From a virus (taxonomy: Duplodnaviria; Heunggongvirae; Uroviricota; Caudoviricetes), in IMG/VR virus record IMGVR_UViG_2744054854_000008, positions 1 to 11,839 of that record: a stretch of 11,839 nucleotides of DNA; one strand, written 5' to 3'. Below, in pieces: positions 1-11,839 of the stretch. Below the pieces are notes generated by a model that worked only from the letters and a program-made list of their open reading frames with translations, ran no database searches and was not told the origin of the DNA. Every line of letters starts with the position of its first letter. Position 1 is the stretch's first letter. A program made the translations under genes and the position numbers.

Positions 1-585
1 CTATTCGATAATGGGTACTGTTGGCCATTCAATATCCGGTGCAGTTGTTGTATTAACACGGTTCAGCAACACCCGATATTTTTTCCAGGCTTCCAGCAAT
101 GAGGTTTCTTCCTCCGTTGCGATCTCCAGATCTACAGCATCCTGAAGTGGCGCTATATGCTCACTGGCTACCTGCATCAGGCTGTTTTTTGTTTCTTCCG
201 CCTCCCGGATCCGGAACAGTTTTTCTGCTTCCGTATCCTTCACCCAGGCTGTGCCGTTCCACTTCTGATATTCCCCTTCCGGCGATAACCAGGTGACATT
301 TTCCGGTAATGAGCCGAGTTCAGAAATAAATAACGCGTCGCCGGAAGCCACGTCATAAACCGTTTTACCCCGATGATCTTCAACGAGATGCCACGATGAC
401 TCATCACTGTTGAAAACAGCCACGAAGCCAGCTGGAATATCTGGCGGTGCAATGTCGGTACTGTTTGCTGGCAGACCTGTATGAGGCGGAATATATGCGT
501 CACCTTCACCAATAAATTCATTAGTTCCGGCCAGCAGATTATAAATTTTTATGGTCCGTGGTTGTTCACTCATTCTGAATGCCAT
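1..585 (-). CDS. tfa: Tail fiber assembly protein (lambda Tfa-like chaperone), 194 aa, complete
   Basis: Full ORF with ATG at 583-585 and stop at 1-3. Translation ([24 protein letters not shown]...EWPTVPIIE) is collinear with lambda Tfa as I recall it. Its start overlaps the stf stop (TAATG on the minus strand), the classic stf-tfa coupling. Confidence 0.9.
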
Positions 586-3500
586 TATGCAAGCCTCACA
601 ATATAGTTAAATGCGATGTTTTTGACGGTGTTTTCCGCGTTACCAGCAGCGTTAACGGTGATGGTGTGTCCATGTGAGCCAATCGCAACCGAGTGCGTAT
701 GAGCACCAATACCGACAGTATGTGCGTGTGCACCTGCGCTTGCAGCAGTACCCGATACAGAGTGCGTATGAGCGCCTGCAGAAGAAGTGTTAACACTGTA
801 TTTAGAATAATCAGGTGATCCACTTCCCGGAGCACCACTGGAACCACCTGAAACAAATGTCATCGAATGGGTATGTGCACCGGCTGAAGCAGCCGTACCG
901 CTAACACTATGGGTATGCGCACCAGTGTTATTCGTGGATTTAGTGCCGTAATCAAACGACGATGTGGTTTTCGTCCCCAAATCAGTACTGGATGCGCTGG
1001 CGCTGTGGGTATGCGATTTTATGCCGTCCTGTTCCTGAGACAATACGGCACGACCACTGGCGGGCTTGCCCTTAATCGTCCAGCCACGCATATCAGGGAT
1101 CACGCCTGACGGATAAGCGGCTGCAAGTTTCGGGTAGGCAGATTTGTCAAAAGTCTGCCCCTGCATCAGGGCATAACCAGACGGAACGGTATCTGATGGC
1201 CACGGGATTGGTGCGCCGACTGGGTAGCTTTCTGGTGGAAGATTTTTCGAGGTATAAACTTCTGCCCAGTCTTCCTCAAAACCATAACCGTCTCTTGAAG
1301 AACGGTAGAACAGACCACCATTTCTGTAATGCGCCTTCATCTGCAGGGTCCGGCAACTTCCGACTCCGGTATAGAAGTTAACCAGAATATAGCTGTCGCC
1401 AGAGCGGGTGACATTATAAGCGCCTGATTCGGCATTCCAGGGAACGCCACCATCCGCATCGGCATATGTATCCGTTGCCCTTCTGGCAAAAGCAGCCACA
1501 TGCGCGGCGGTTAAAGTGATATCAGTAGAACCATCAAATGGAACACCGGATATTTTTCTTGCAGTCTGGAGTTTTGTAGCAGTTGCAGCATTACCAGTAG
1601 TGTTCTGATTACCCGTAGTGTTTACACCTGGAAGGTTAATATTTGCAGAACCGTCGAAAACAACTCCACCGATAGATCTTGCCGTCTGCAATTTCGTGGC
1701 TGTACTTGCATTACCATTCAATGAACCAGTTAATCCACCTGTAACAGACAACGGACCTGAAACTGTTCCTCCGGTTGTTGGCAGTGCTCCAATATCTGAT
1801 GGTGTAGGTTTCTGATGTGAGCTATACATCGTATAAACAACACCATAGGTAACGCTGGAAGGCTTACTCGCTGAATATGTTGGCGAGGTATAAACAGAAA
1901 CTGACGCATTTGCAGTACAATCCCAATGGATATTTACACTCGTCGCATAATTGCCAATCTCAACGTAAATATCATATGTATCGCCGGATGTGTTGATCCA
2001 GGCGAAATTCGTTAATCCGACGGCTGTACGCTTCCACAAAGCCCCGGTAATTCCTTTGGGGTTTCCATTGCCTGCTCGTAGAACCAGTTCTGAAATGCCT
2101 GCCTGATGTGGGGAACCGACGTTGTAACCAGCGCCACCAATCAATGCGATGTAAACGATGGAACTCGTTTGTGGCATGGTAACCGTAGCCAGTTTGAACC
2201 ACCCAGCCCCGCCAGAGAAAGACATCGTTACTGAATTTAAAGTACCAATATCTTTCGGCGTTAATGTTATATCCGCAGTCAGTGCTTTTCCGTTAACTTT
2301 TCGGTTAGATGGCACCCTGCTATTCGCATTGTCATTGGCTGCTTTAACTGCTTTTGGCGTTGCGGCCAGCGATTCACTGGTGCTATCAACAGCACTGCTA
2401 AGTTTCACAACACCTTTAGTTGTAAGGCTTGCGTCTTCCATCGCAACTGCACCGGCAATCTCTTCAGCACGATCAGCAGCAGCTTCCGCACGGGTCGCAG
2501 CGGATTCAGCAGTAGTTTTGCTCTGAGATGCCGCCGTCGCACTGCCAGCAGCCTCTGTTGCCTTCGTGGATGCCGTCGTGGCGCTGCCCTTCGCTGCTGA
2601 CGCTTGTCTGGTCGCCTCATCTTTTGAAGCAGACGCCGATGAGGCCGATGACGCCGCCGAACTGGCGGACGATGCGGCAGCCGTTTTTGAGGATTCTGCG
2701 CTGGTTTCCGACGCTTTCGCGTTCGTTTCGGATGTCTTCGCTGCGGAAGCTGACCTCGCTGCTGCGCTGGCCTGTTCAGTGGCTTCGCCAGCCTTCGTTG
2801 TGGCTGTTGAAGCGGACGATGCGGCGCTTTCTGCCGATTTTCCGGCGGCGCTAGCACTGGCTGAGGCCTGCCCGGCACTTGTTGACGCTGCACTGGCAGA
2901 CGACGCAGCCGCTGTTTTTGAGCCTGCCGCAGCCGAGGCGCTCTGTCCCGCTGCCGTTTCAGAAGACCTGGCGTTTGTCTCGGACGTCTTTGCCGCCTTC
3001 GCGGAATTGCCTGCTGCCGTTGCCGAGGAAGCGGCACTACTGGCGCTTGATGATGCGTTCGTTTCTGATGATTTCGCTGCCTCTTTTGAGGCCGCCGCAT
3101 CCCGGGCTGAGGTGGCTGCTTCTGACGCCTTCGTGGTCGCGGCGGATGCAGAAGTGGCTGCTGATTGTTGTGACGCTGCCGCATTCGTTTCTGACGTTTT
3201 CGCCGTAGCGGCACTGGTAGCTGCCGCGCTTTTTGAGGACTCTGCAGCAGCAGCACTTTTCGATGCTTCACTGGCCTTTGTTGATGCCGTTCCTGCGCTG
3301 GAAGATGCTGACTGAGCCGACGACGCGGCCTGTCCGGCTGACGTGCTGGCTGCGCGTGCTGAGCCTGCAGCATCAGTCGCATGGGTTGCCGCCTCACGGG
3401 CTGATGTGCTGGCATCGCTGGCTGACTTCTTCGCGGCTGCCGTGTTCTGTGCCACCGCGGACGCGTTACGCGCCACCTCTTCCACCATCAGTTCAAAACG

Positions 3501-3812
3501 GCGCAGTGCCTCAGGACGGGCATCATCCTCCGTCATGGCACCGAGAAAATCATTCAGCGTACCGGGTCGGGAATCTTCATACACGGTGATGGTCCCGGCA
3601 TGTGACGGCGGGAATCCCTCCACCAACAGAATAACGCTGTACTGCCCGTACTCAACGTCCATGCTGTAACGCCCGGCTTCATCCGGATTTTCTGAGGCCA
3701 GCGTGTTCACCACCACCGTGGTGCTGTTACGTTTTGCTTTCAGCTGGATTGTGCAGTTCTGTACCGGTTTTCCTGTGCCGTCTTTCAGTACACCTGAAAT
3801 CTTTACTGCCAT
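585..3812 (-). CDS. stf: Side tail fiber protein (lambda Stf-like), about 1075 aa
   Basis: N-terminus [26 protein letters not shown] and C-terminus ...GAHTHSV...[15 protein letters not shown] match lambda-type Stf. Long Ala/Ser/Thr-rich central region and C-terminal GAHTH (HxH) repeats. Likely start is the ATG at 3810-3812 with GGGGTG upstream; the ORF track's start at 3818 is an upstream in-frame GTG. Stop TAA at 585-587. Confidence 0.9.
2400..3480 (-). repeat. GC-rich low-complexity repeat region inside stf, encoding reiterated Ala/Ser/Thr-rich motifs ([26 protein letters not shown])
   Basis: The translation shows many imperfect repeats of short A/S/T motifs. The DNA is dominated by GCN/TCN/ACN codons, which is why long spurious ORFs open in other frames and on the opposite strand here. 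Confidence 0.5.
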
Positions 3813-3823
3813 ATTCACCCCAC

Positions 3824-3850
3824 AAAAAAGCCCGCCTGAACCGGCGGGCT
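3824..3850 (-). terminator. Rho-independent terminator downstream of lom
   Basis: Plus-strand gcccgcc(3830-3836)/ggcgggc(3843-3849) inverted repeat with a 6-nt loop, preceded on plus by A6 (3824-3829). On the minus strand this is a GC stem followed by a T6 run, 27 nt after the lom stop. Confidence 0.6.
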
Positions 3851-3876
3851 GTCATAACACTGTGTTACCTGGCTAA

Positions 3877-4476
3877 TCAGAATTTATAACCGACACCCAC
3901 GATGAAACCGTCAGTGCGCCAGTCACCACTGCCGGAGCCTTCATAAGCAATATCAATGGCCACGGATTCGGTCGGGTTAAACTGCACGCCAGCCCCCCAC
4001 GCCAGAGACGTGTTGCTGTGGCGACCGTCATCACTTCCGGTCAGCACATCGTGCTTTTTCCCCTTGTTGTCAGTTACGCGAAGATAATCCCCGGAGAAAG
4101 TCGACACACGGCTGTAAGCCACACCCGCCATCGCATACGCGCTGAACCATTCATTCACGCGCACAGACGGCCCCGCCATTACGCTGAACCAGCGGTTACG
4201 CACGGAATCTTCATGCCAGCGGGTATCGCTGTAACGGGTAAGCTGGCGATTCTTGTCTCCTGCATAGCTGAATGACGTCACCATTCCCAGCGTGTCCGTA
4301 AACTCATAACGGTATTTCACGTTAATCCCGTTCAGATCATCGCTGCCGGAAACGTTCGTCGAGGCATGAAGATAGCCCGCGCTCAGCGTGGACTGATGTT
4401 CAGACGCCCATGCAGGCGCACCGGATACGGCCAGACAGATGGCTGCGGACAAAATGGCGGCATAAAGTTTACGCAT
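3877..4476 (-). CDS. lom: Outer membrane beta-barrel protein Lom (Ail/Lom/PagC family), 199 aa, intact
   Basis: ATG at 4474-4476 with GAGAGG Shine-Dalgarno upstream. Signal peptide [24 protein letters not shown], alternating amphipathic beta-strand pattern, C-terminal aromatic residue (…GVGYKF). Sits between J and stf as in lambda. Confidence 0.9.
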
Positions 4477-4497
4477 AATTACCTCTCGCTTTTCTGC

Positions 4498-4524
4498 AAT
4501 AAAAAAGGCGTCATTTCTGACGCC
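4498..4524 (-). terminator. Rho-independent terminator downstream of the J fragment
   Basis: ggcgtca(4507-4513)/tgacgcc(4518-4524) 7-bp stem with tttc loop. On the minus strand the hairpin is followed by TTTTTTATT (plus 4498-4506 aataaaaaa). Confidence 0.6.
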
Positions 4525-4542
4525 CGTTCTGGGTTATAAAAT

Positions 4543-5910
<1,368 letters not shown>

Positions 5911-5920
5911 TTATGCCCTC

Positions 5921-5944
5921 CATTAAAAATGGGGCCGAAGCCCC
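5921..5944 (-). terminator. Rho-independent terminator downstream of the 461-aa gene
   Basis: Minus strand reads GGGGC-TTCG-GCCCC (plus 5931-5944) followed by ATTTTTAAT (plus 5921-5929), starting 10 nt after the TAA stop at 5955-5957. Confidence 0.55.
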
Positions 5945-5954
5945 GTTTGAATGT

Positions 5955-7340
5955 TTAACCAAGAATCAGACAACCATGTGCCGGCTTCACTGATGAAACA
6001 CCCCATGCCAGTCCAACTTCATAGCGCACCTGGCGATACTGACGATACAGTGCAATCTGGAACGTAATCCCTGAAATCGGGTCCGTAACATTCATTACAT
6101 CATCAGCATTATCGCCACCTTCCGGCATTGCCGGAGTACGGGATGCCAGCAGAAACGCGTTGCGATCAAACGCCATATTTGCCGTAAAGGCCCCAACAAC
6201 TGTGATGGCAGTATCATCGGCCAGATCCTGACGCAGTCCGGGCGCTGCAAGAGTAATCAGATTGCTGGTCGCTGCTGCCACAACATACTGATTCGGATCA
6301 CCAGCGAACGTAACAATCTGACCTGCAGAAATACTCCCCGAACCAGTATCAATGGAAATAAGAACATCGCCTTCTTTTTTCTCTCCATTCACGAGATAAC
6401 CAGTTGCAGCAACCTTTGGCGCTCGTTTCACACCTGCCGAACTGTGAATATTGAATCCCTCCAGACGCCCCAACACGCCCTCACGCAGTAGCTGTTCAGT
6501 GCCGGATTCATTCACTTTAAACAATACAGACTGTTTTCCGCGCAAATTAGCAATGGCAGTGGAGCCAAGCACCATCTGCAGATCGGTTGTCGGTGCGCCG
6601 TTATCCTCCAGAACCTGACGAGCCAGAGCAGCATCAGAAAGATCATCTTTAACACCAAACGGCGTTGTCCCTGCGGTTCCCACGGCGCGGGAAGCACCGA
6701 AATACAACGCACCAAGATCAGCCTCAACCTCGTTTGCAAGGGCGCGAAAAGCCTGCTTGAACTGATCAGCCAGAATGGTGTTGTAAGTCCCTGAAGGGCC
6801 AAGAGCCAGTTGTTCTTCACCATTCCATTTAACCGGTGCCATTTTGGATTTAGTAATTTTTACATCAACAGTGCCAATATTTTGATCACCGGTAAACATG
6901 CTGTTAATAGCAGTGCGGTTACCGGGCAAAACATCCGTCAACAGTTCATCAATTTCTGTCGGGATGAAGCCTGTCAGGGAGACATCAAAATCAGCATTGA
7001 TTAGGTCCGACAGCTCCATCCGCAACAGATCTTCATCCCAGCCAGCATTCATCGGCAGGCGATTATCTGCCAGGCGGTACGCCTTTTTCTGCTCATCCGT
7101 CAGGCCAGACAGAACAATGACCGGAACAGAATCCATTTTGAGCATTTCAGCCGCCATAACACGACCGTGACCCGCAATAATTTCGCCCTTTTCGTCAATC
7201 AGCACCGGATTAGTCCAGCCGAATTGCTTAATACTTTCTACCAGTTGTGCCACCTGCTCAGGGCTGTGCGTCCTGGCGTTGTGCGCATACGGTGACAATT
7301 CTTGTAATGGGCGATAGACTATCTTTAATTTCTCGCTCAT
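5955..7340 (-). CDS. ParB-like nuclease (ParB/Srx fold) N-terminal domain protein with an unassigned ~320-aa C-terminal region, 461 aa
   Basis: ATG at 7338-7340 with AAGG upstream. Residues ~8-95 (IVYRPLQELSPYAHNARTH...IIAGHGRVMAA...VPVIVLSGLTDEQKKAYRLADNRL) carry the ParB N-terminal domain pattern, with GHGR in place of the canonical GERR. The Gly/Ala/Thr/Val-rich C-terminal part has no motif I can assign. Followed by a terminator. Confidence 0.75.
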   Translation of the reverse strand: MSEKLKIVYRPLQELSPYAHNARTHSPEQVAQLVESIKQFGWTNPVLIDEKGEIIAGHGRVMAAEMLKMDSVPVIVLSGLTDEQKKAYRLADNRLPMNAGWDEDLLRMELSDLINADFDVSLTGFIPTEIDELLTDVLPGNRTAINSMFTGDQNIGTVDVKITKSKMAPVKWNGEEQLALGPSGTYNTILADQFKQAFRALANEVEADLGALYFGASRAVGTAGTTPFGVKDDLSDAALARQVLEDNGAPTTDLQMVLGSTAIANLRGKQSVLFKVNESGTEQLLREGVLGRLEGFNIHSSAGVKRAPKVAATGYLVNGEKKEGDVLISIDTGSGSISAGQIVTFAGDPNQYVVAAATSNLITLAAPGLRQDLADDTAITVVGAFTANMAFDRNAFLLASRTPAMPEGGDNADDVMNVTDPISGITFQIALYRQYRQVRYEVGLAWGVSSVKPAHGCLILG

Positions 7341-7477
7341 ACAGCCTTGCTTTATGAATAAAACGCCCCCCAGCAGCCAGTGCTACTGGGGACGGAGGGG
7401 TTGCTGGTAAAGTTAGGTATTGGATCAATGAGTGAGTCAACATAATATTAAACTCACAATTATAAATCAGCCATATA

Positions 7478-8935
7478 TTAGGAGCGCCAAAAAAAACCTG
7501 AAAACAATATAATAACAGGATAAATTTCAAGGCGACCAAGAATCATAGCTATGCACATTAAACATTTTGCAATGTCATTAAGCACTCCGAATGACGATGC
7601 AGTAGCCCCAAAACCTAATCCCATATTATTAATACATGCAGCCACTGTTGCAAATGATGTAAGAAAATCATATCCCATACCATTTAATACCAGTATAAAA
7701 AACACCGTGAAGAGAGTATAAAGAAAAAAGAAACTCCATACAGACCTCATTACACGATCTGTAACTATCTTCCCTCCTACATTTACACTCAACAACGCTC
7801 TGGGATGAGAAAGCTGATTTATCTCGTGTTTGCTTTGTTTGAAAAGTATAAGAAATCGAAGTGACTTAATTCCACCACAAGTTGAACCTATACATCCCCC
7901 AAAGAAACTTGACAACAGCAAAAACACTATCGTGTGCGTGGGCCAACTTGCATAATCCTGCGTAGCTAAACCATTATCAGTGAGCATGGAACTGGCAAGA
8001 AAAAACGAATGAATAAAACTTCCATGCAAGTCATACATACCTATATGCCAGACCTGGAAAGAGGTAACAATGATCACCCCTAAGGCTATTAACAGAAAGA
8101 AACGAAGTTCAATATCTCTGATTAAAGGTTTTATCGTTTTCCTGCTAATAACAATATACCAAAGAGTGAAGTTGAAAGCCGATAGCAGGGAAAAAGAACC
8201 AGCCACCAGCTCAACCAAATAGTTATTAAAATATCCGATACTCTCGCTATGAGTTGAGAAACCACCAAGCGAAACTGTGGAAATCCCGTGACAAATAGCA
8301 TCAAACAAAGGCATTCCTGCAAGTCTATAACAGACAATACAAGCAATACCTAATAAAGAATAAGTTATCCACAGTGTCCGTGACGTATCGGCCAGGCGGG
8401 GAGTGAGTTTGTCATCCTTAAATGGCCCCGGCATTTCTGACTGATAAAGCTTTGCACCACCAATACCCAATAATGGCAATACAGCAACCGCCAGAACAAT
8501 AACTCCTAAACCACCTATAAAATTTAACTGTGACCGATAGTACAAATATGCCCGAGGTAATGAACTAACATCATCAATTACAGTTGCTCCTGTTGTTGTT
8601 ATTCCAGAAACCCCTTCAAACAGAGCATCAATGAACGTTAAATTAAGTTCTGAGTCAATCCATAAAGGGAATGCACTAATAACAGAAAACAAAATCCAAA
8701 ACATTACAATTATAATAAACCCATCACGGGTACGTAATTGAATGCCAGATTTCTTAGTTGTATACCACGCTCCGCCACCAATGCAAAAAAATATAACGAA
8801 AGTTATAAAGAAAACGAACAGGCTTTTTTCTTTATAAAACAATGCTACAACCATTGGTGGCAACATTGAAAGACTATAGAGCCAAACCAGGAACCCACAC
8901 ATATGAGTAACAACTCTTACATGAGATGTATTCAT
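7478..8935 (-). CDS. trkG: TrkH/TrkG-family K+ uptake transporter (Rac-prophage TrkG-like), about 485 aa
   Basis: Multi-pass membrane protein. N-terminus MNTSHVRVVTHMCGFLVWLYSLSMLPP is as I recall TrkG, and the reiterated pore-loop GG(L/F)G-type motifs fit the TrkH family. Coding DNA is visibly AT-rich compared with its flanks. Start taken as the ATG at 8933-8935; an in-frame TTG at 8951-8953 with AGGTGG 6 nt upstream is an alternative (491 aa). Confidence 0.9.
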   Translation of the reverse strand: MNTSHVRVVTHMCGFLVWLYSLSMLPPMVVALFYKEKSLFVFFITFVIFFCIGGGAWYTTKKSGIQLRTRDGFIIIVMFWILFSVISAFPLWIDSELNLTFIDALFEGVSGITTTGATVIDDVSSLPRAYLYYRSQLNFIGGLGVIVLAVAVLPLLGIGGAKLYQSEMPGPFKDDKLTPRLADTSRTLWITYSLLGIACIVCYRLAGMPLFDAICHGISTVSLGGFSTHSESIGYFNNYLVELVAGSFSLLSAFNFTLWYIVISRKTIKPLIRDIELRFFLLIALGVIIVTSFQVWHIGMYDLHGSFIHSFFLASSMLTDNGLATQDYASWPTHTIVFLLLSSFFGGCIGSTCGGIKSLRFLILFKQSKHEINQLSHPRALLSVNVGGKIVTDRVMRSVWSFFFLYTLFTVFFILVLNGMGYDFLTSFATVAACINNMGLGFGATASSFGVLNDIAKCLMCIAMILGRLEIYPVIILFSGFFWRS

Positions 8936-8939
8936 ATCT

Positions 8940-9010
8940 AAATATTCTTTCAATTATAACCACCTTGCTGCAATATTATGATTATACTGTATAAAATTTA
9001 ACTCCTCTTA
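8940..9010 (-). promoter_or_regulatory. Candidate trkG promoter in an AT-rich intergenic region
   Basis: Two minus-strand TATAAT hexamers (plus attata at 8953-8958 and 8981-8986) in a 137-bp AT-rich spacer between the Rz stop and trkG. Neither has a good -35 element, so this is weakly supported. Confidence 0.2.
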
Positions 9011-9072
9011 GATCTTACTTCACTGTTCCTTATGAAACAATCATCAAAATGAATCATATTGTAGTTAAGATT

Positions 9073-9363
9073 TTACTTTAAACACTGCTCGGTTATGTAT
9101 TGCTGAGCACCTTCAAGTTGGGCCTGCATCATTACCAGTCGTTCCCGGAGGGTGAAATAATCCCGTTCAGCGGTGTCTGCCAGTCGGGGGGAGGCTGCAT
9201 TATCCACGCCGGAGGCGGTGGTGGCTTCACGCACTGACTGACAGACTGCTTTGATGTGCAACCGACGACGACCAGCGGCAACATCATCACGCAGAACATC
9301 ATTTTCAGCTTTCGCATCAGCTAACTCCTTCGTGTATTTTGCATCGAGCGCAGCAACATCACG
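9073..9363 (-). pseudogene. rzpR: N-terminally truncated Rz (i-spanin) remnant, C-terminal ~97 codons
   Basis: Hand translation gives RDVAALDAKYTKELADAKAENDVLRDDVAAGRRRLHIKAVCQSVREATTASGVDNAASPRLADTAERDYFTLRERL..., collinear with the lambda Rz C-terminal two thirds. Similarity stops abruptly upstream of codon R at 9361-9363; the signal-anchor N-terminus and a start codon are missing. Confidence 0.7.
9132..9317 (-). CDS. rzoR: Rz1-type o-spanin outer membrane lipoprotein, 61 aa, embedded in the +1 frame of the Rz remnant
   Basis: ATG at 9315-9317. MRKLKMMFCVMMLPLVVVGCTSKQ... has a lipobox (VVGC), and the Pro-rich mature part (KPPPPPAWIMQPPPDWQ) matches lambda Rz1 nearly residue for residue. 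Confidence 0.8.
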   Translation of the reverse strand: MRKLKMMFCVMMLPLVVVGCTSKQSVSQCVKPPPPPAWIMQPPPDWQTPLNGIISPSGNDW

Positions 9364-9422
9364 CGGACTTGTGCAAGTTGCCAGGAGGATCTGGAGCTTA
9401 TCAGTAAACAGAGAGGTTCGAA

Positions 9423-9830
9423 GTGAGCGAAATTAACTCTCAGGCACTGCGTGAAGCGGCAGAGAAAGCCGGTGAAGATAAGTGGCAGGCTAAAAAAATA
9501 AATGGTGATTTTTTCGTTATTCGTCACGGTAGTTATACAAGACAGCATGGCTACACATCGTATCAACCCATTGCGGAGATTGATTGTAAGCCAGTCCGGG
9601 ATTTTGTTGCCAAGGCTAATCCGGCTACCGTGCTGGAATTACTGGATGAACTGGAAGCAGCAAAAAAGCGCATTGCAGAACTGGAAGCGCGGGAAATACT
9701 GCTCCCGGAACGTAGCAGCATGCTTCATCGAACAGATTTTCACGATGATTACCAAACGGTAATGGCATACAAAGTTTCTGAAGTCATCGATGCAATCCGC
9801 GCTACTGGCATTCGCATCAAAGGAGAGTGA
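9423..9830 (+). CDS. Phage Ead/Ea22-like family protein (function unknown), 135 aa
   Basis: GTG start at 9423 with GAGAGG upstream; stop TGA at 9828-9830. Motifs QALREAAEKA and ANPATVLELLDELEAAKKRIAELE are what I associate with Ead/Ea22-like proteins of lambdoid prophages. The family assignment is from memory. Confidence 0.55.
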   Translation: MSEINSQALREAAEKAGEDKWQAKKINGDFFVIRHGSYTRQHGYTSYQPIAEIDCKPVRDFVAKANPATVLELLDELEAAKKRIAELEAREILLPERSSMLHRTDFHDDYQTVMAYKVSEVIDAIRATGIRIKGE

Positions 9831-9831
9831 G

Positions 9832-10587
9832 ATGATTCACTACCACGGTGGGCCTATTACTCCTGATACGTGCGCAATGAGAGCATGGAAAGGGCGACAT
9901 GCGTTTATCAGTTTTGCGCATTCAGGCCAGATCAATCTCGCGGCTGAATACTGTCAGTCGTTCGCGCTGGACAACGGTGCATTCACCGCCTGGAAAGCAG
10001 CTGGCAAAAACAAAATCGACTGGAGCGATTACTACGAGTTTGTTGCTCGCTGGAAGAATCACCCAGGATTCGATTTTGCCATTATCCCGGATATTATTGA
10101 TGGCGGAGAGGAGGAAAATGATGCGCTTCTGAATGAGTGGCCTCACGGAAAACTAGCTGGCGTTCCAGTGTGGCACATGAATGAAAGTGACGCGCGATTT
10201 ATTCATTTGTGCAATGAGTTTCCGCGAGTGGCTATCGGTAGTTGTGGCGACTATGACGTAAAGCGCCCAACTCTTGCGGTAGCCAGAATGAAAGACCTGA
10301 TTCGTCACATTGTTGATGGGCATGGTCAGCCGGTTACGAAACTACATGGATTGCGCATGTTAAATCCGCTGATATTCACAAAATTACCCTTAGCCAGCGC
10401 AGATAGTACGAACGTCGCTCGAAACATCGGTATTGATAAAGCCTGGTCTGGGGCTTATGCACCTGCAAGTAAAGAGACACGCGCAGCATTAATGGTAGAA
10501 CGGATTGAGGCACACAATAGCCCTGGTTCTCTTGCGTATTGTGAACAACGCGACCGCTTTGAAATGCAATTGCAACTAGCAGTTTAA
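9832..10587 (+). CDS. Hypothetical protein with TGT-like (tRNA-guanine transglycosylase fold) motifs; candidate DpdA-type 7-deazaguanine transglycosylase, 251 aa
   Basis: ATG at 9832 with AGGAG 6 nt upstream, 1 nt after the upstream stop; the track's start at 9790 is an upstream in-frame ATG. Motifs in TGT order: FALDNGAF (cf. TGT LTDSGGFQ), GFDFAIIPDI (cf. GSDIVMIFDE), HLCNEFPRVAIGSCG (cf. HVCPQIPADKPRYLMGVG), ADSTNVARN (cf. FDCVMPTRNARN, nucleophile Asp). No CxCxxC...H zinc motif. The gene call is solid; the functional call is a hypothesis. Confidence 0.6.
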   Translation: MIHYHGGPITPDTCAMRAWKGRHAFISFAHSGQINLAAEYCQSFALDNGAFTAWKAAGKNKIDWSDYYEFVARWKNHPGFDFAIIPDIIDGGEEENDALLNEWPHGKLAGVPVWHMNESDARFIHLCNEFPRVAIGSCGDYDVKRPTLAVARMKDLIRHIVDGHGQPVTKLHGLRMLNPLIFTKLPLASADSTNVARNIGIDKAWSGAYAPASKETRAALMVERIEAHNSPGSLAYCEQRDRFEMQLQLAV

Positions 10588-10597
10588 GGACTAACAA

Positions 10598-11839
10598 ATG
10601 ACCACTATTACCAAAGAACGTATTGAATTGTTCATTAAAAATCCGCTTGAAAACGGGCTTACTCGTGGCGAACAAATGGAACTGGCACGAATTGCACTGG
10701 CATCACTGGAACGCGAACTGATTCGCCACGAGCATGCCAAATGGTCTGACTCCACATTTGGCTGCGTTGGCCCCATTGGTCCACTGAAACACCTCTCAAA
10801 AGAGGCTCTGGAAGCCGCAGCCGAACCAGACGATCTCAGCGAGTGGGCTGATATGCATTTCCTGTTGTGGGATGCACAGCGCCGTGCTGGCATCAGCGAT
10901 GCTGAAATTACCGCTGCTATGGAAGATAAATTGAAGATCAACATGGAGCGCCAGTGGCCTGAACCAAAAGATGGTGAGCCTCGCTTGCACATTAAAGAAC
11001 CCGGCAACTCTCCGGTAATTCCGGATGGTTTATCCACGGTATGCGCTGAGGCTTATCAGGTTGTAGGAGTTATGGCAGATGCGCTTGGTGTATTCGGTGA
11101 TGCAGCAGTACAGAAAGTTCTGGATAACCTGTCACAGCAAAAACTTGTTCACAGAGATGTGCTGCCGTTCTCGCTTCCGGTGACTCCGGATGGTTGGATA
11201 AGCTGTAGTGAGCGAATGCCGAAAGAGGCAATAGCTGAAGGCCATATAACAACAAACCCTGTCGCTGCCACTCGCGCAGCAAAATCAGAGGTAAGGAGAT
11301 CAAGACTTACGGCTGACGAATACCTGAAAATTTATCAAGCAGCAGAATCATCACCATGTTGGCTCAGACTTGCAATGGAACTGGCTGTTGTTACCGGGCA
11401 GCGAGTTGGTGATTTATGCGAAATGAAGTGGTCTGATATCGTAGATGGATATCTTTATGTCGAGCAAAGCAAAACAGGCGTAAAAATTGCCATCCCAACA
11501 ACATTGCATGTTGATGCTCTCGGGATATCAATGAAGGAAACACTTGATAAATGCAAAAAGATTCTTGGCGGAGAAACCATAATTGCATCTACTCGTCGTG
11601 AACCGCTTTCATCCGGCACAGTATCAAGGTATTTTATGCGCGCACGAAAAGCATCAGGTCTCTCCTTCGAAGGGGATCCGCCAACCTTTCACGAGTTGCG
11701 CAGTTTGTCTGCAAGACTCTATGAGAAGCAGATAAGCGATAAATTTGCTCAACATCTTCTCGGGCATAAGTCGGACACCATGGCATCACAGTATCGTGAT
11801 GACAGAGGCAGGGAGTGGGACAAAATTGAAATCAAATAA
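10598..11839 (+). CDS. Chimeric tyrosine recombinase: non-integrase N-terminal ~209 aa fused in frame to a lambda-type Int catalytic domain (~203 aa), 413 aa
   Basis: ATG at 10598 with TAAGGA 7 nt upstream; stop TAA at 11837-11839. From residue ~210 (EAIAEGHITTN...TGQRVGDL...FHELRSLSARLY...HLLGHKSDTMASQYRDDRGREWDKIEIK) it is near-identical to the lambda Int C-terminal catalytic domain, including the R...HxxR...H...Y residues. Residues 1-209 do not resemble the Int arm-binding or core-binding domains. Confidence 0.8.
   Translation: MTTITKERIELFIKNPLENGLTRGEQMELARIALASLERELIRHEHAKWSDSTFGCVGPIGPLKHLSKEALEAAAEPDDLSEWADMHFLLWDAQRRAGISDAEITAAMEDKLKINMERQWPEPKDGEPRLHIKEPGNSPVIPDGLSTVCAEAYQVVGVMADALGVFGDAAVQKVLDNLSQQKLVHRDVLPFSLPVTPDGWISCSERMPKEAIAEGHITTNPVAATRAAKSEVRRSRLTADEYLKIYQAAESSPCWLRLAMELAVVTGQRVGDLCEMKWSDIVDGYLYVEQSKTGVKIAIPTTLHVDALGISMKETLDKCKKILGGETIIASTRREPLSSGTVSRYFMRARKASGLSFEGDPPTFHELRSLSARLYEKQISDKFAQHLLGHKSDTMASQYRDDRGREWDKIEIK

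What the first reader, a model, noticed from the sequence alone, without database searches (positions are those of the whole stretch)
5955..7340. ParB-like nuclease domain protein with a large unassigned C-terminal domain, sitting between trkG and the J remnant
The N-terminal ~100 residues are a clear ParB/Srx-type domain with GHGR replacing the canonical GERR. The following ~360 residues are Gly/Ala/Thr/Val-rich and match nothing I can name. The gene sits where the head/packaging module of a lambdoid phage would begin, so it may be an in-frame deletion fusion (ParB-like N-terminus joined to the tail of a structural gene; parts of the C-terminus loosely recall P22-type coat proteins, which is speculative) or a moron cargo gene. 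It keeps its own ribosome-binding site and a UUCG-loop terminator.
Basis: partly seen in the sequence, partly recalled or inferred. Interest (0 to 1): 0.55.

Follow-up and report, generated by a model that had tools for sequence, protein, structure and literature searches.

The report
Deletion-made ParB–capsid fusion pseudogene
The 461-codon gene is a leftover of a decayed prophage: deletions welded the front of a phage ParB-like gene, in frame, to the back of the phage's major capsid gene, so it is an ordinary relic and not a new two-domain protein.

Summary
The ORF at 5955-7340 (minus strand, 461 aa) is real. It has three pieces, each in its native reading frame:
- residues 1-140 of a 263-aa phage ParB/Srx-like protein;
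- nine residues (NRTAINSMF) from a Mu-F-like head-morphogenesis gene;
- residues 68-379 of a P22-type major capsid protein.

In an intact Rac-like phage (vB_EcoS-683R6) these genes are separate. Between them lie a TAGT-family gene, a small ORF, terS, terL, portal and scaffold. About 7.5 kb has been lost at two junctions.

The capsid family consists of stand-alone proteins of about 380 aa (1,808 clusters). The fusion lacks the family's N-arm and the first E-loop strand. The exact junction occurs in only two complete E. coli genome records, apparently one strain, plus one small read-assembly protein cluster. Other genomes carry different ParB-capsid joins.

The moron alternative has no support. 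The ORF is most likely non-functional.

One side observation is unexplained. Of 29 mapped deletion junctions in such prophages, 12 cross at a TA dinucleotide, and three sites are re-used with different partners. Two of the three are in the capsid and Mu-F-like genes; the third, ParB nt 420, is used six times.

The parts
5955..7340 (-). Chimeric ORF, 461 codons plus stop
   Evidence: ORF list; translation and piece map
6920..7340 (-). Piece 1: ParB/Srx-like gene nt 1-421 (residues 1-140, ends ...TDVLPG). This is the complete N-terminal module, including the GHGR motif.
   Evidence: 99.8% identical to L002 19833-20253 in a block that runs on through trkG. Pfam, PHROG and PADLOC matches cover residues about 1-143. 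Spo0J alignment.
6888..6921 (-). Piece 2: 34-nt relic of the Mu-F-like head-morphogenesis gene (nt 216-249). It encodes NRTAINSMF in that gene's own frame. It overlaps piece 1 by TA and piece 3 by TACC.
   Evidence: blastn 33/34, E 2e-9, to L002 14329-14362. Frames and junction alignments. Pfam Phage_Mu_F on the intact gene.
5955..6894 (-). Piece 3: major capsid gene nt 201-1140 (coat residues 68-379 plus stop). The first 67 residues are missing (N-arm helix, first E-loop strand).
   Evidence: 99.7% identical to L002 11315-12297. AF2 pLDDT above 90 over this part, and Foldseek top hits are P22, CUS-3 and Sf6 coats, E 2e-18. Intact-coat model.
5931..5944 (-). Native capsid-gene terminator hairpin GGGGC-TTCG-GCCCC followed by ATTTTTAAT
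   Evidence: Terminator scan; identical in the intact phage
5887..5914 (-). 28-nt relic of the tail-tube gene (nt 898-925). It lies between the ATG of the gene after coat (5912-5914) and the J remnant.
   Evidence: 28/28 match to L002 8636-8663; junction alignment
4543..5889 (-). C-terminal remnant of tail-tip protein J
   Evidence: Pfam Phage_Tail_Tip and Ig_GpJ_C. PGAP calls it a pseudogene missing its N-terminus in the near-identical locus. J matches reach 5889.
7367..7392 (-). Strong terminator-like hairpin (11 pairs plus T-run) between the trkG stop and the ORF start
   Evidence: Terminator scan
7478..8953 (-). trkG, the intact upstream moron gene
   Evidence: Pfam TrkH, E 5e-145; PGAP annotation

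Best explanation
The ORF is a chimeric pseudogene in an 11.8-kb remnant of a lambdoid prophage with a Rac-type late region.

Shown: the ancestral late operon ran trkG - ParB-like gene - TAGT-family gene - small ORF - terS - terL - portal - Mu-F-like head protein - scaffold - coat - head-tail and tail genes.

Shown: two illegitimate joins removed about 7.5 kb.
- The first joins ParB nt 420 to Mu-F gene nt 216, crossing at a shared TA.
- The second joins Mu-F gene nt about 246 to coat nt about 201, crossing at a shared TACC.
Only 34 nt of the Mu-F-like gene remain. All three pieces stayed in their native frames. The result is one ORF that uses the ParB gene's ribosome-binding site and the coat gene's terminator.

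Shown: two further joins downstream removed the head-completion and tail genes up to the 3' end of J.

Inferred: the product, if made, is a complete ParB/Srx N-terminal module tethered to a capsid protein that lacks its N-arm and half of its E-loop. It cannot build a capsid. Portal, scaffold, terminase and most tail genes are also gone.

Inferred: the late promoter and antiterminator region is deleted and a strong terminator precedes the ORF, so expression is probably low. The in-frame state is most likely an accident.
For: - Piece map against intact phage ON470595: window 6920-9368 = ParB + trkG; 6888-6921 = Mu-F-like gene; 5912-6894 = coat plus downstream; 5887-5914 = tube gene.
- Family assignments of the halves and of the intact genes.
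- Fold: the coat part is modelled at pLDDT above 90 and best matches P22, CUS-3 and Sf6 coat, E 2e-18 to 6e-16, TM about 0.6.
- The intact coat model places helix 6-19 and strand 45-50, which pairs with strand 74-79 as the E-loop, inside the lost 67 residues. The near-invariant E23 and G26 are lost as well.
- The family architecture is stand-alone: 1,808 clusters at 50% identity, nearly all about 375-390 aa and aligned from residue about 3 to 379.
- Of 7,783 hits, the only proteins that cover both halves are a few E. coli variants whose shared parts are near-identical to the query and whose junctions differ: 507, 431, 416 and 349 aa.
- Other N-termini (terS, portal, TAGT) are also found fused to the same coat tail.
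- RefSeq annotates the near-identical locus as a ynaK pseudogene plus a capsid-family protein.
- Chance of being in frame: TA sites in these genes share codon phase with probability 0.42, so two in-frame TA joins have a chance of about 0.17.
- Terminator before the ORF, and no promoter-like site after it.
- The late control region is replaced: an Rz remnant is joined directly to early-left genes at 9364-9368.
Against: - Open frames across two junctions and 461 codons are somewhat unlikely by chance (about 0.17 on phase alone).
- A related 507-aa ParB-coat fusion persists in 15 complete genomes from varied hosts. Some use of such fusions is therefore not excluded.
- No expression data were available.
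- No genome carrying only one of the two junctions was found. The order of the two deletions, or a single complex event, is unresolved.
- The ParB part of the structure model is low confidence.
Confidence: 0.93

Rival explanations
1. The fusion is a domesticated, functional gene. One version: the N-arm-less coat tethered to a ParB module poisons capsid assembly of superinfecting relatives, giving exclusion. Another version: the ParB module alone keeps a DNA- or nucleotide-binding role.
For: - The ORF is open, with an RBS and a terminator.
- The ParB module is complete to its usual boundary at residue about 143.
- An independent 507-aa in-frame ParB-coat fusion is present in 15 complete genomes from pig, chicken, human, dog, sheep and water.
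Against: - The exact fusion is confined to two complete-genome records, apparently one strain, and one small read-assembly protein cluster.
- An out-of-frame ParB-coat join also exists (L004, 169-aa product).
- In-frame variants were found through a protein search, which can only detect in-frame cases.
- There is no defence-family hit apart from the N-terminal module it shares with methyltransferases.
- A terminator lies directly upstream and there is no promoter-like site.
- Sequence identity is too high (99.7-100%) to test for purifying selection.
Confidence: 0.05
2. It is a natural two-domain phage protein (ParB-N plus a capsid-like domain), and the 'intact' phages carry a split version.
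For: There is a single uninterrupted ORF. Protein clusters with both halves exist.
Against: - Every both-halves protein is an E. coli sequence whose shared parts are near-identical to the query, and each has a different junction.
- The family at large is stand-alone and its conserved N-terminus is missing here.
- A 9-residue in-frame relic of a third gene sits at the joint.
- 748 of 791 E. coli genomes that have this coat gene carry at least 80% of it.
- No phage record covers more than 58% of the locus.
Confidence: 0.01
3. The junction is an assembly artefact.
For: None specific.
Against: - The same junction is present at 100% identity in two complete-genome records.
- It is also present in an independent read-assembly protein cluster, P0003.
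- The window is 99.93% identical over all 11,839 bases to NZ_AP021894.
- The microhomologies are 2-4 nt, too short to mislead an assembler.
Confidence: 0.01

Closest known systems
ynaK / ydaY remnant of the Rac prophage in E. coli K-12
   Same: It has the same ParB-like gene directly downstream of trkG, truncated by a deletion into the late operon. It is the same kind of prophage-decay relic.
   Different: K-12 breaks at ParB nt 254 and joins to ydaY nt 99, crossing at AA. The join is out of frame, giving 87-aa YnaK and a separate YdaY, and no capsid DNA is left. Here the break is at nt 420, the whole ParB module survives, and it is fused in frame to coat. The K-12 locus is at the Rac site; this one is at att-lambda.
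P22 gp5-type major capsid proteins (Pfam PF11651; HK97 fold with inserted domain; P22, CUS-3, Sf6)
   Same: The Pfam hit is above the cut-off. The predicted fold matches solved P22, CUS-3 and Sf6 coats with probability 1.00. In the intact relative the gene sits after portal, Mu-F-like protein and scaffold.
   Different: Sequence identity to P22 gp5 is only 12-16%. The natural protein of this subfamily has 379 aa. The copy here lacks residues 1-67 and carries a foreign N-terminus.
Phage ParB/Srx N-terminal modules (PHROG 620; the same module heads ParB-methyltransferase fusions, PHROG 498 / PADLOC MTase_II)
   Same: Residues 1-143 match these profiles end to end. The motif aligned to ParB box II (GERR) is GHGR.
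   Different: It is not a canonical partition ParB. TIGR00180 scores 37 bits against a cut-off of 58, and no HTH or dimerisation part is detected. The natural C-terminal 123 residues are deleted here. In the intact phage the gene overlaps a TAGT-family glycosyltransferase gene.
Intact Rac-like siphophage vB_EcoS-683R6 (ON470595) and its prophage relatives
   Same: DNA identity is 99.7-99.8% over every retained piece, with the same gene order trkG - ParB - ... - coat.
   Different: The phage has all genes between ParB and coat and between coat and J. The window has lost them at four junctions.

Membership tests
ParB/Srx N-terminal domain (PF02195) | Profile match above the curated cut-off | tested here: met
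   27.6 bits against 26.3 for residues 23-90. PHROG 620 gives E 1e-70 over residues 1-143.
ParB/Srx N-terminal domain (PF02195) | Arginine-containing box II motif (GERR in chromosomal ParB) at the aligned position | tested here: met
   GHGR lies over GERR in the alignments to Spo0J 1vz0 and ParB 4umk. The final Arg is kept; the E-R pair is replaced by H-G.
ParB/Srx N-terminal domain (PF02195) | ParB/Srx fold | tested here: inconclusive
   The alignment used for prediction had no ParB homologues. pLDDT is 30-80 over residues 1-140.
Canonical ParB/Spo0J partition protein (TIGR00180) | Full-length match including the HTH and C-terminal dimerisation parts | tested here: not met
   37.2 bits against a cut-off of 58.45, over N-terminal residues 11-94 only. 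The same holds for the intact 263-aa protein.
P22-type major capsid protein (PF11651, HK97 fold) | Profile match above the curated cut-off | tested here: met
   47.9 bits against 24. PHROG 283 gives E 9e-113.
P22-type major capsid protein (PF11651, HK97 fold) | Fold match to solved coat proteins | tested here: met
   Foldseek top 17 hits are P22, CUS-3 and Sf6 coat, E 2e-18 to 7e-16, probability 1.00.
P22-type major capsid protein (PF11651, HK97 fold) | Complete polypeptide with N-arm and E-loop, as needed for capsomer contacts | tested here: not met
   Coat residues 1-67 are absent. In the intact model they hold helix 6-19 and strand 45-50, and the near-invariant E23 and G26.
P22-type major capsid protein (PF11651, HK97 fold) | Encoded with portal, scaffold and terminase in a head module | tested here: not met
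   None of these genes is in the window. All are present in the intact relative.
Natural two-domain ParB-capsid protein family (hypothetical) | Same architecture in diverged homologues from unrelated phages | tested here: not met
   The only both-halves proteins are E. coli variants near-identical in their shared parts, each with a different junction. Across 1,808 clusters the coat is stand-alone. No phage record covers more than 58% of the locus.

The most novel reading that the evidence does not exclude
The joins that created this ORF may belong to a distinct, site-preferring deletion process in Rac-type late regions.

Of 29 mapped junctions, 12 cross at a TA dinucleotide. In 10 of those 12, a retained end reads 5'-TA(A)CC away from the join, which is formally a cut 3' of GGT(T)A on one strand.

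Three sites are re-used with different partners:
- ParB nt 420, six partners;
- Mu-F gene nt 216, three or four partners;
- coat nt 201, three partners.

This could reflect a specific nuclease, transposase-like or recombinase activity that repeatedly disarms these prophages, and not generic microhomology joining.
Probability: 0.3. Interest if true: 0.55.

Novelty: already known. Interest (0 to 1): 0.17.

Why it matters
For the finding itself, very little. It removes a candidate 'novel two-domain protein' and shows how a long, clean ORF with its own RBS and terminator can be a pure product of prophage decay. That is a useful caution for annotation: RefSeq splits it into a pseudogene and a 'capsid family protein'.

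The locus gives a well-resolved example of stepwise or complex erosion of a late operon. Relics of 34 nt and 28 nt mark genes that have otherwise vanished.

The only part with wider potential is the side observation of recurrent TA breakpoints. If these reflect a specific mechanism, it would bear on how prophages are inactivated and domesticated.

Tried and rejected
- Natural two-domain protein: rejected.
- Defence-gene reading: PADLOC gave only the N-terminal module shared with type II methyltransferases. NCBIfam gave only sub-threshold ParB models.
- Single-junction intermediates: synthetic queries for ParB420|Mu-F216 with intact downstream, and for Mu-F246|coat201 with intact upstream, were run against 5,426 complete genomes. 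Neither was found. The hits were other junctions at the same Mu-F site.
- Hairpin or cruciform explanation for the breakpoint hot spots: folding energies of 62-mers centred on the used TA sites (-2.0 to -9.4 kcal/mol) lie within the background of all 552 TA sites (mean -5.2, sd 2.2).
- Pin invertase crossover sites as partner of the ParB nt 420 break: no matching inverted repeats were found around the tail-fibre joins. My recalled resemblance to gix/hix half-sites did not place the crossover correctly and was dropped.
- Restriction-site, RusA (cut 5' of CC), integron GTT and IS608 TTAC readings of the motif each failed on one or more junctions. This was checked by inspection.
- Literature: searches for ynaK + Rac and for TA-dinucleotide illegitimate recombination in E. 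coli returned nothing relevant.
- Purifying selection on the fusion was not testable, because carriers are 99.7-100% identical.

Full report
**Observation**

The window has an ATG-initiated ORF of 461 codons at 5955..7340 on the minus strand. Pfam finds two domains above their curated cut-offs:
- ParB_N, residues 23-90, 27.6 bits against 26.3;
- P22_CoatProtein, 47.9 bits against 24.

PHROGs is much clearer. Residues 1-143 match 'ParB-like partition protein' (phrog_620, E 1e-70, profile positions 3-144 of 217). Residues 146-461 match 'major head protein' (phrog_283, E 9e-113, profile positions 64-383 of 385). The head-protein match therefore begins about 60 positions into the profile.

In a phmmer alignment to Thermus Spo0J (1vz0), IIAGHGR lies over LVAGERR.

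The neighbours are as described: trkG at 7478-8953 and a C-terminal J remnant at 4543-5889. The UUCG-loop terminator is at 5944-5931. An AAGG element lies 4 nt before the ATG. A stronger terminator-like hairpin (7392-7367) lies between trkG and the ORF, and no promoter-like site follows it.

**What it is**

Megablast against phage records split the locus. Window 5912-6894 matches 'coat protein' plus the downstream spacer of ten phage records at 99.7-100%. No record covers more than 58% of the query.

One of those records, Escherichia phage vB_EcoS-683R6 (ON470595), carries the whole late region (Pfam assignments). Its gene order is:
- lysis genes, then trkG;
- a 263-aa ParB-like gene;
- a 310-aa gene that overlaps it (Pfam TAGT);
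- a small ORF, terS, terL and portal;
- a Mu-F-like head protein and a scaffold (DUF6651);
- a coat gene, whose true start gives 379 aa;
- head-completion and tail genes.

A sensitive blastn of the window against this locus gave four colinear blocks:

| Window | Phage locus L002 | Content |
|---|---|---|
| 6920-9368 | 19833-22281 | ParB nt 1-421 plus trkG |
| 6888-6921 | 14329-14362 | 34 nt inside the Mu-F-like gene, 33/34 |
| 5912-6894 | 11315-12297 | coat nt 201 to stop, spacer, ATG of the next gene |
| 5887-5914 | 8636-8663 | 28 nt inside the tail-tube gene |

Translation shows the fusion is ParB 1-140 (…TDVLPG), then NRTAINSMF (Mu-F-like protein residues 73-81, in its own frame), then coat 68-379 (TGDQNIG…). 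The crossover at the first junction is a shared TA. The crossover at the second is a shared TACC. About 7.5 kb has been lost inside the ORF: the TAGT gene, the small ORF, terS, terL, portal, most of the Mu-F-like gene, scaffold and the coat 5' end.

**Is the architecture natural?**

No.
- A search of the 5.8-billion-protein collection with the whole fusion returned 7,783 hits. The normal form is a 378-379-aa stand-alone coat in Escherichia, Citrobacter, Salmonella, Klebsiella and Serratia.
- Only a handful of E. coli proteins cover both halves. Each has its own junction: 507 aa (ParB140 | coat from residue 13), 431 aa (ParB140 | coat from residue 89), 416 aa (the window's type called from an internal start) and 349 aa.
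- The same coat tail is also found fused to the N-termini of terS, portal and the TAGT protein.
- An exhaustive HMMER scan of 1.84 billion cluster representatives found 1,808 family members. Nearly all are about 375-390 aa and align from residue about 3 to 379.
- The family's N-terminus is conserved, with E23 and G26 at 90% or more. It is missing here.

**Structure**

With 120 coat homologues in the alignment, AlphaFold2 models the coat part of the fusion at pLDDT above 90. The ParB part had no homologues in the alignment and is modelled poorly. Foldseek against the PDB puts P22, CUS-3 and Sf6 coat proteins first (E 2e-18 to 7e-16, probability 1.00, TM about 0.6).

A model of the intact 379-aa coat (pLDDT 93) places the following in order: an N-terminal helix (6-19), two short helices, strand 45-50, a long loop and strand 74-79 (together the E-loop hairpin), then the 30-residue spine helix at 104-133. 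The fusion starts at residue 68, so it lacks the N-arm and the first E-loop strand. In HK97-fold capsids these elements make the inter-subunit and scaffold contacts; that is established knowledge of the fold and was not tested here. The product should therefore be unable to assemble.

**Context and distribution**

- The whole 11,839-base window is 99.93% identical (8 mismatches, no gaps) to E. coli 2018-10-1CC (NZ_AP021894).
- There the remnant lies between ybhB plus a diguanylate-cyclase gene and ybhC, that is at att-lambda. RefSeq annotates the ORF as a ynaK pseudogene plus a 365-aa 'P22 major capsid protein family protein'.
- The uninterrupted junction occurs in only two of 20,395 records. 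They have identical length and are evidently one strain.
- Fifteen complete genomes carry the different 507-aa fusion. In the example examined (L003), the head-completion and tail-terminator genes downstream are still present as far as the locus was read. One genome carries an out-of-frame ParB nt 471 | coat nt 24 join.
- 791 of 5,426 genomes have this coat gene, 748 of them at 80% length or more.
- K-12 has ParB nt 254 joined to ydaY nt 99. E. coli B has ParB nt 231 joined to Mu-F nt 911.

**Likely expression and function**

Upstream of trkG the window has only an Rz/Rz1 remnant, joined at 9364-9368 to early-left genes. The late promoter and antiterminator are therefore gone. This, together with the terminator in front of the ORF, makes strong transcription unlikely; that is an inference.

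The open frame does not call for selection. In these genes 56% of TA dinucleotides straddle codon positions 3|1. Two random TA sites share phase with probability 0.42, which gives about 0.17 for two in-frame TA joins. I conclude, at about 0.93, that this is a non-functional decay product. A functional reading, such as dominant-negative coat or a retained ParB-module activity, gets about 0.05.

**Side observation: recurrent TA breakpoints**

I mapped 29 deletion or inversion junctions whose two parental sequences are both known. They come from the window, 14 complete genomes and 4 read-assembly contigs.

Twelve of the 29 have TA inside the microhomology. The expectation from the region's composition is 0.9% for random joins and 5.6% for joins with 2 nt or more of microhomology. 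For an interim tally of 9 of the 13 junctions mapped at that point, P was about 3e-9 under the 5.6% null. That test was not repeated for the final 12 of 29.

Breakpoints recur:
- ParB nt 420 (…CCCGGTA|CAGG) is joined to six different partners: Mu-F nt 216, coat nt 36, coat nt 262, terS nt 935, a tail-fibre site and one unknown sequence.
- Mu-F nt 216 (GGTTA|ACCGC) is joined to ParB nt 420, 704 and 785. An 11-nt relic of it also appears in a further locus.
- Coat nt 201 (GAATA|CCGG) is joined to Mu-F nt 244, portal nt 472 and the tail-fibre start.

Six of 16 ParB left ends fell at one position. That never happened in 200,000 simulations.

In 10 of the 12 TA joins, at least one retained end reads 5'-TA(A)CC from the join, against an expectation of 17% (P about 8e-7). 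Counting each site only once, P is about 0.002.

The other 17 junctions show ordinary microhomologies of 0-4 nt (AA, TG, TT, GAGC, TGGA, GGAA and others).

Caveats:
- Five junctions were found through a protein search. That biases towards in-frame joins, though not towards TA.
- In the frame-blind sample of 12, only 3 are TA joins, and all three involve the hot spots.
- Events are not phylogenetically de-duplicated.
- Local hairpins do not explain the sites. I could not match the motif to any enzyme I know. This remains unexplained.

**Verdict**

The object is an ordinary prophage relic already covered by existing annotation categories.

Noticed in passing
window 6920-6921, 6888-6894, 5912-5914; loci L003, L005, L006, L008, L011, L012, L019, L022, L023, L024: Deletion junctions in Rac-type late regions cross at TA far more often than expected (12 of 29). 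They re-use three sites with different partners: ParB nt 420 (six partners), Mu-F-like gene nt 216 (three or four) and coat nt 201 (three). The retained end usually reads 5'-TA(A)CC from the join. No mechanism was identified.
   Followed up: partly
L002 18537-20253 (intact phage ON470595); absent from the window: In intact relatives the ParB-like gene overlaps by 8 nt a 310-aa gene with a TET-associated glycosyltransferase domain (Pfam TAGT, E 8e-35; PGAP calls it 'GREB1-related protein'). This places a possible DNA-modification pair between trkG and terS. ParB plus TAGT occurs in 1,580 of 5,426 E. coli genomes.
   Followed up: partly
window 10598-11839 (+): This is a second chimeric open frame. 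It contains a dATP/dGTP pyrophosphohydrolase domain (residues 42-137), the first 14 residues of a DUF551 domain, and then the catalytic C-terminal part of a lambda-type integrase (residues 236-402). The join is at about 11221-11224. PGAP calls all the parts pseudogenes.
   Followed up: partly
window 1-11839 as a whole; L001, L015: The window is essentially the entire prophage remnant, running from the tfa gene to the integrase 3' end. It sits at att-lambda between ybhB plus a sensor diguanylate-cyclase gene and ybhC, not at the K-12 Rac site. It is 99.93% identical to E. coli 2018-10-1CC from Viet Nam.
   Followed up: yes
window 5881-5898 (+): A terminator-like hairpin on the plus strand (GTTCCCC-AGTC-GGGGAGC followed by T7) spans the join between the J remnant and the 28-nt tube-gene relic. 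It appears to have been created by the deletion itself.
   Followed up: no
window 9364-9368: An Rz/Rz1 lysis-gene remnant is joined directly, with 1 nt of microhomology, to early-left genes (TraR/DksA fragment, ead/Ea22-like). These genes are contiguous in Stx1a phage EH2115. The Q/late-promoter, replication and immunity regions are therefore absent.
   Followed up: partly
window 9790-10587 (+): A 265-aa ORF that RefSeq calls 'hypothetical protein' (WP_000582229). It has no hit in Pfam, NCBIfam or PADLOC. The DNA is conserved in the early-left region of a Stx1a-converting phage (LC744180).
   Followed up: partly
protein P0008: A 663-aa protein named 'Plastid ribosomal protein L11 [Trichuris trichiura]' is 97% identical to this phage coat over 71% of the query. 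It also carries the scaffold domain DUF6651. It looks like E. coli prophage contamination and a wrong name in a helminth assembly.
   Followed up: no
L016 (E. coli EC24) 2976-4132: A 1.16-kb inversion of the terS region, with loss of 328 nt, lies next to the TAGT gene. This is a rearrangement of a different type in the same late region.
   Followed up: no
many loci (for example L017-L025): PGAP labels the first 258 nt of every copy of the ParB-like gene as a 'ynaK' pseudogene 'missing C-terminus', even where the 263-aa gene is intact. The cause appears to be that the K-12 truncated 87-aa YnaK serves as the reference.
   Followed up: no
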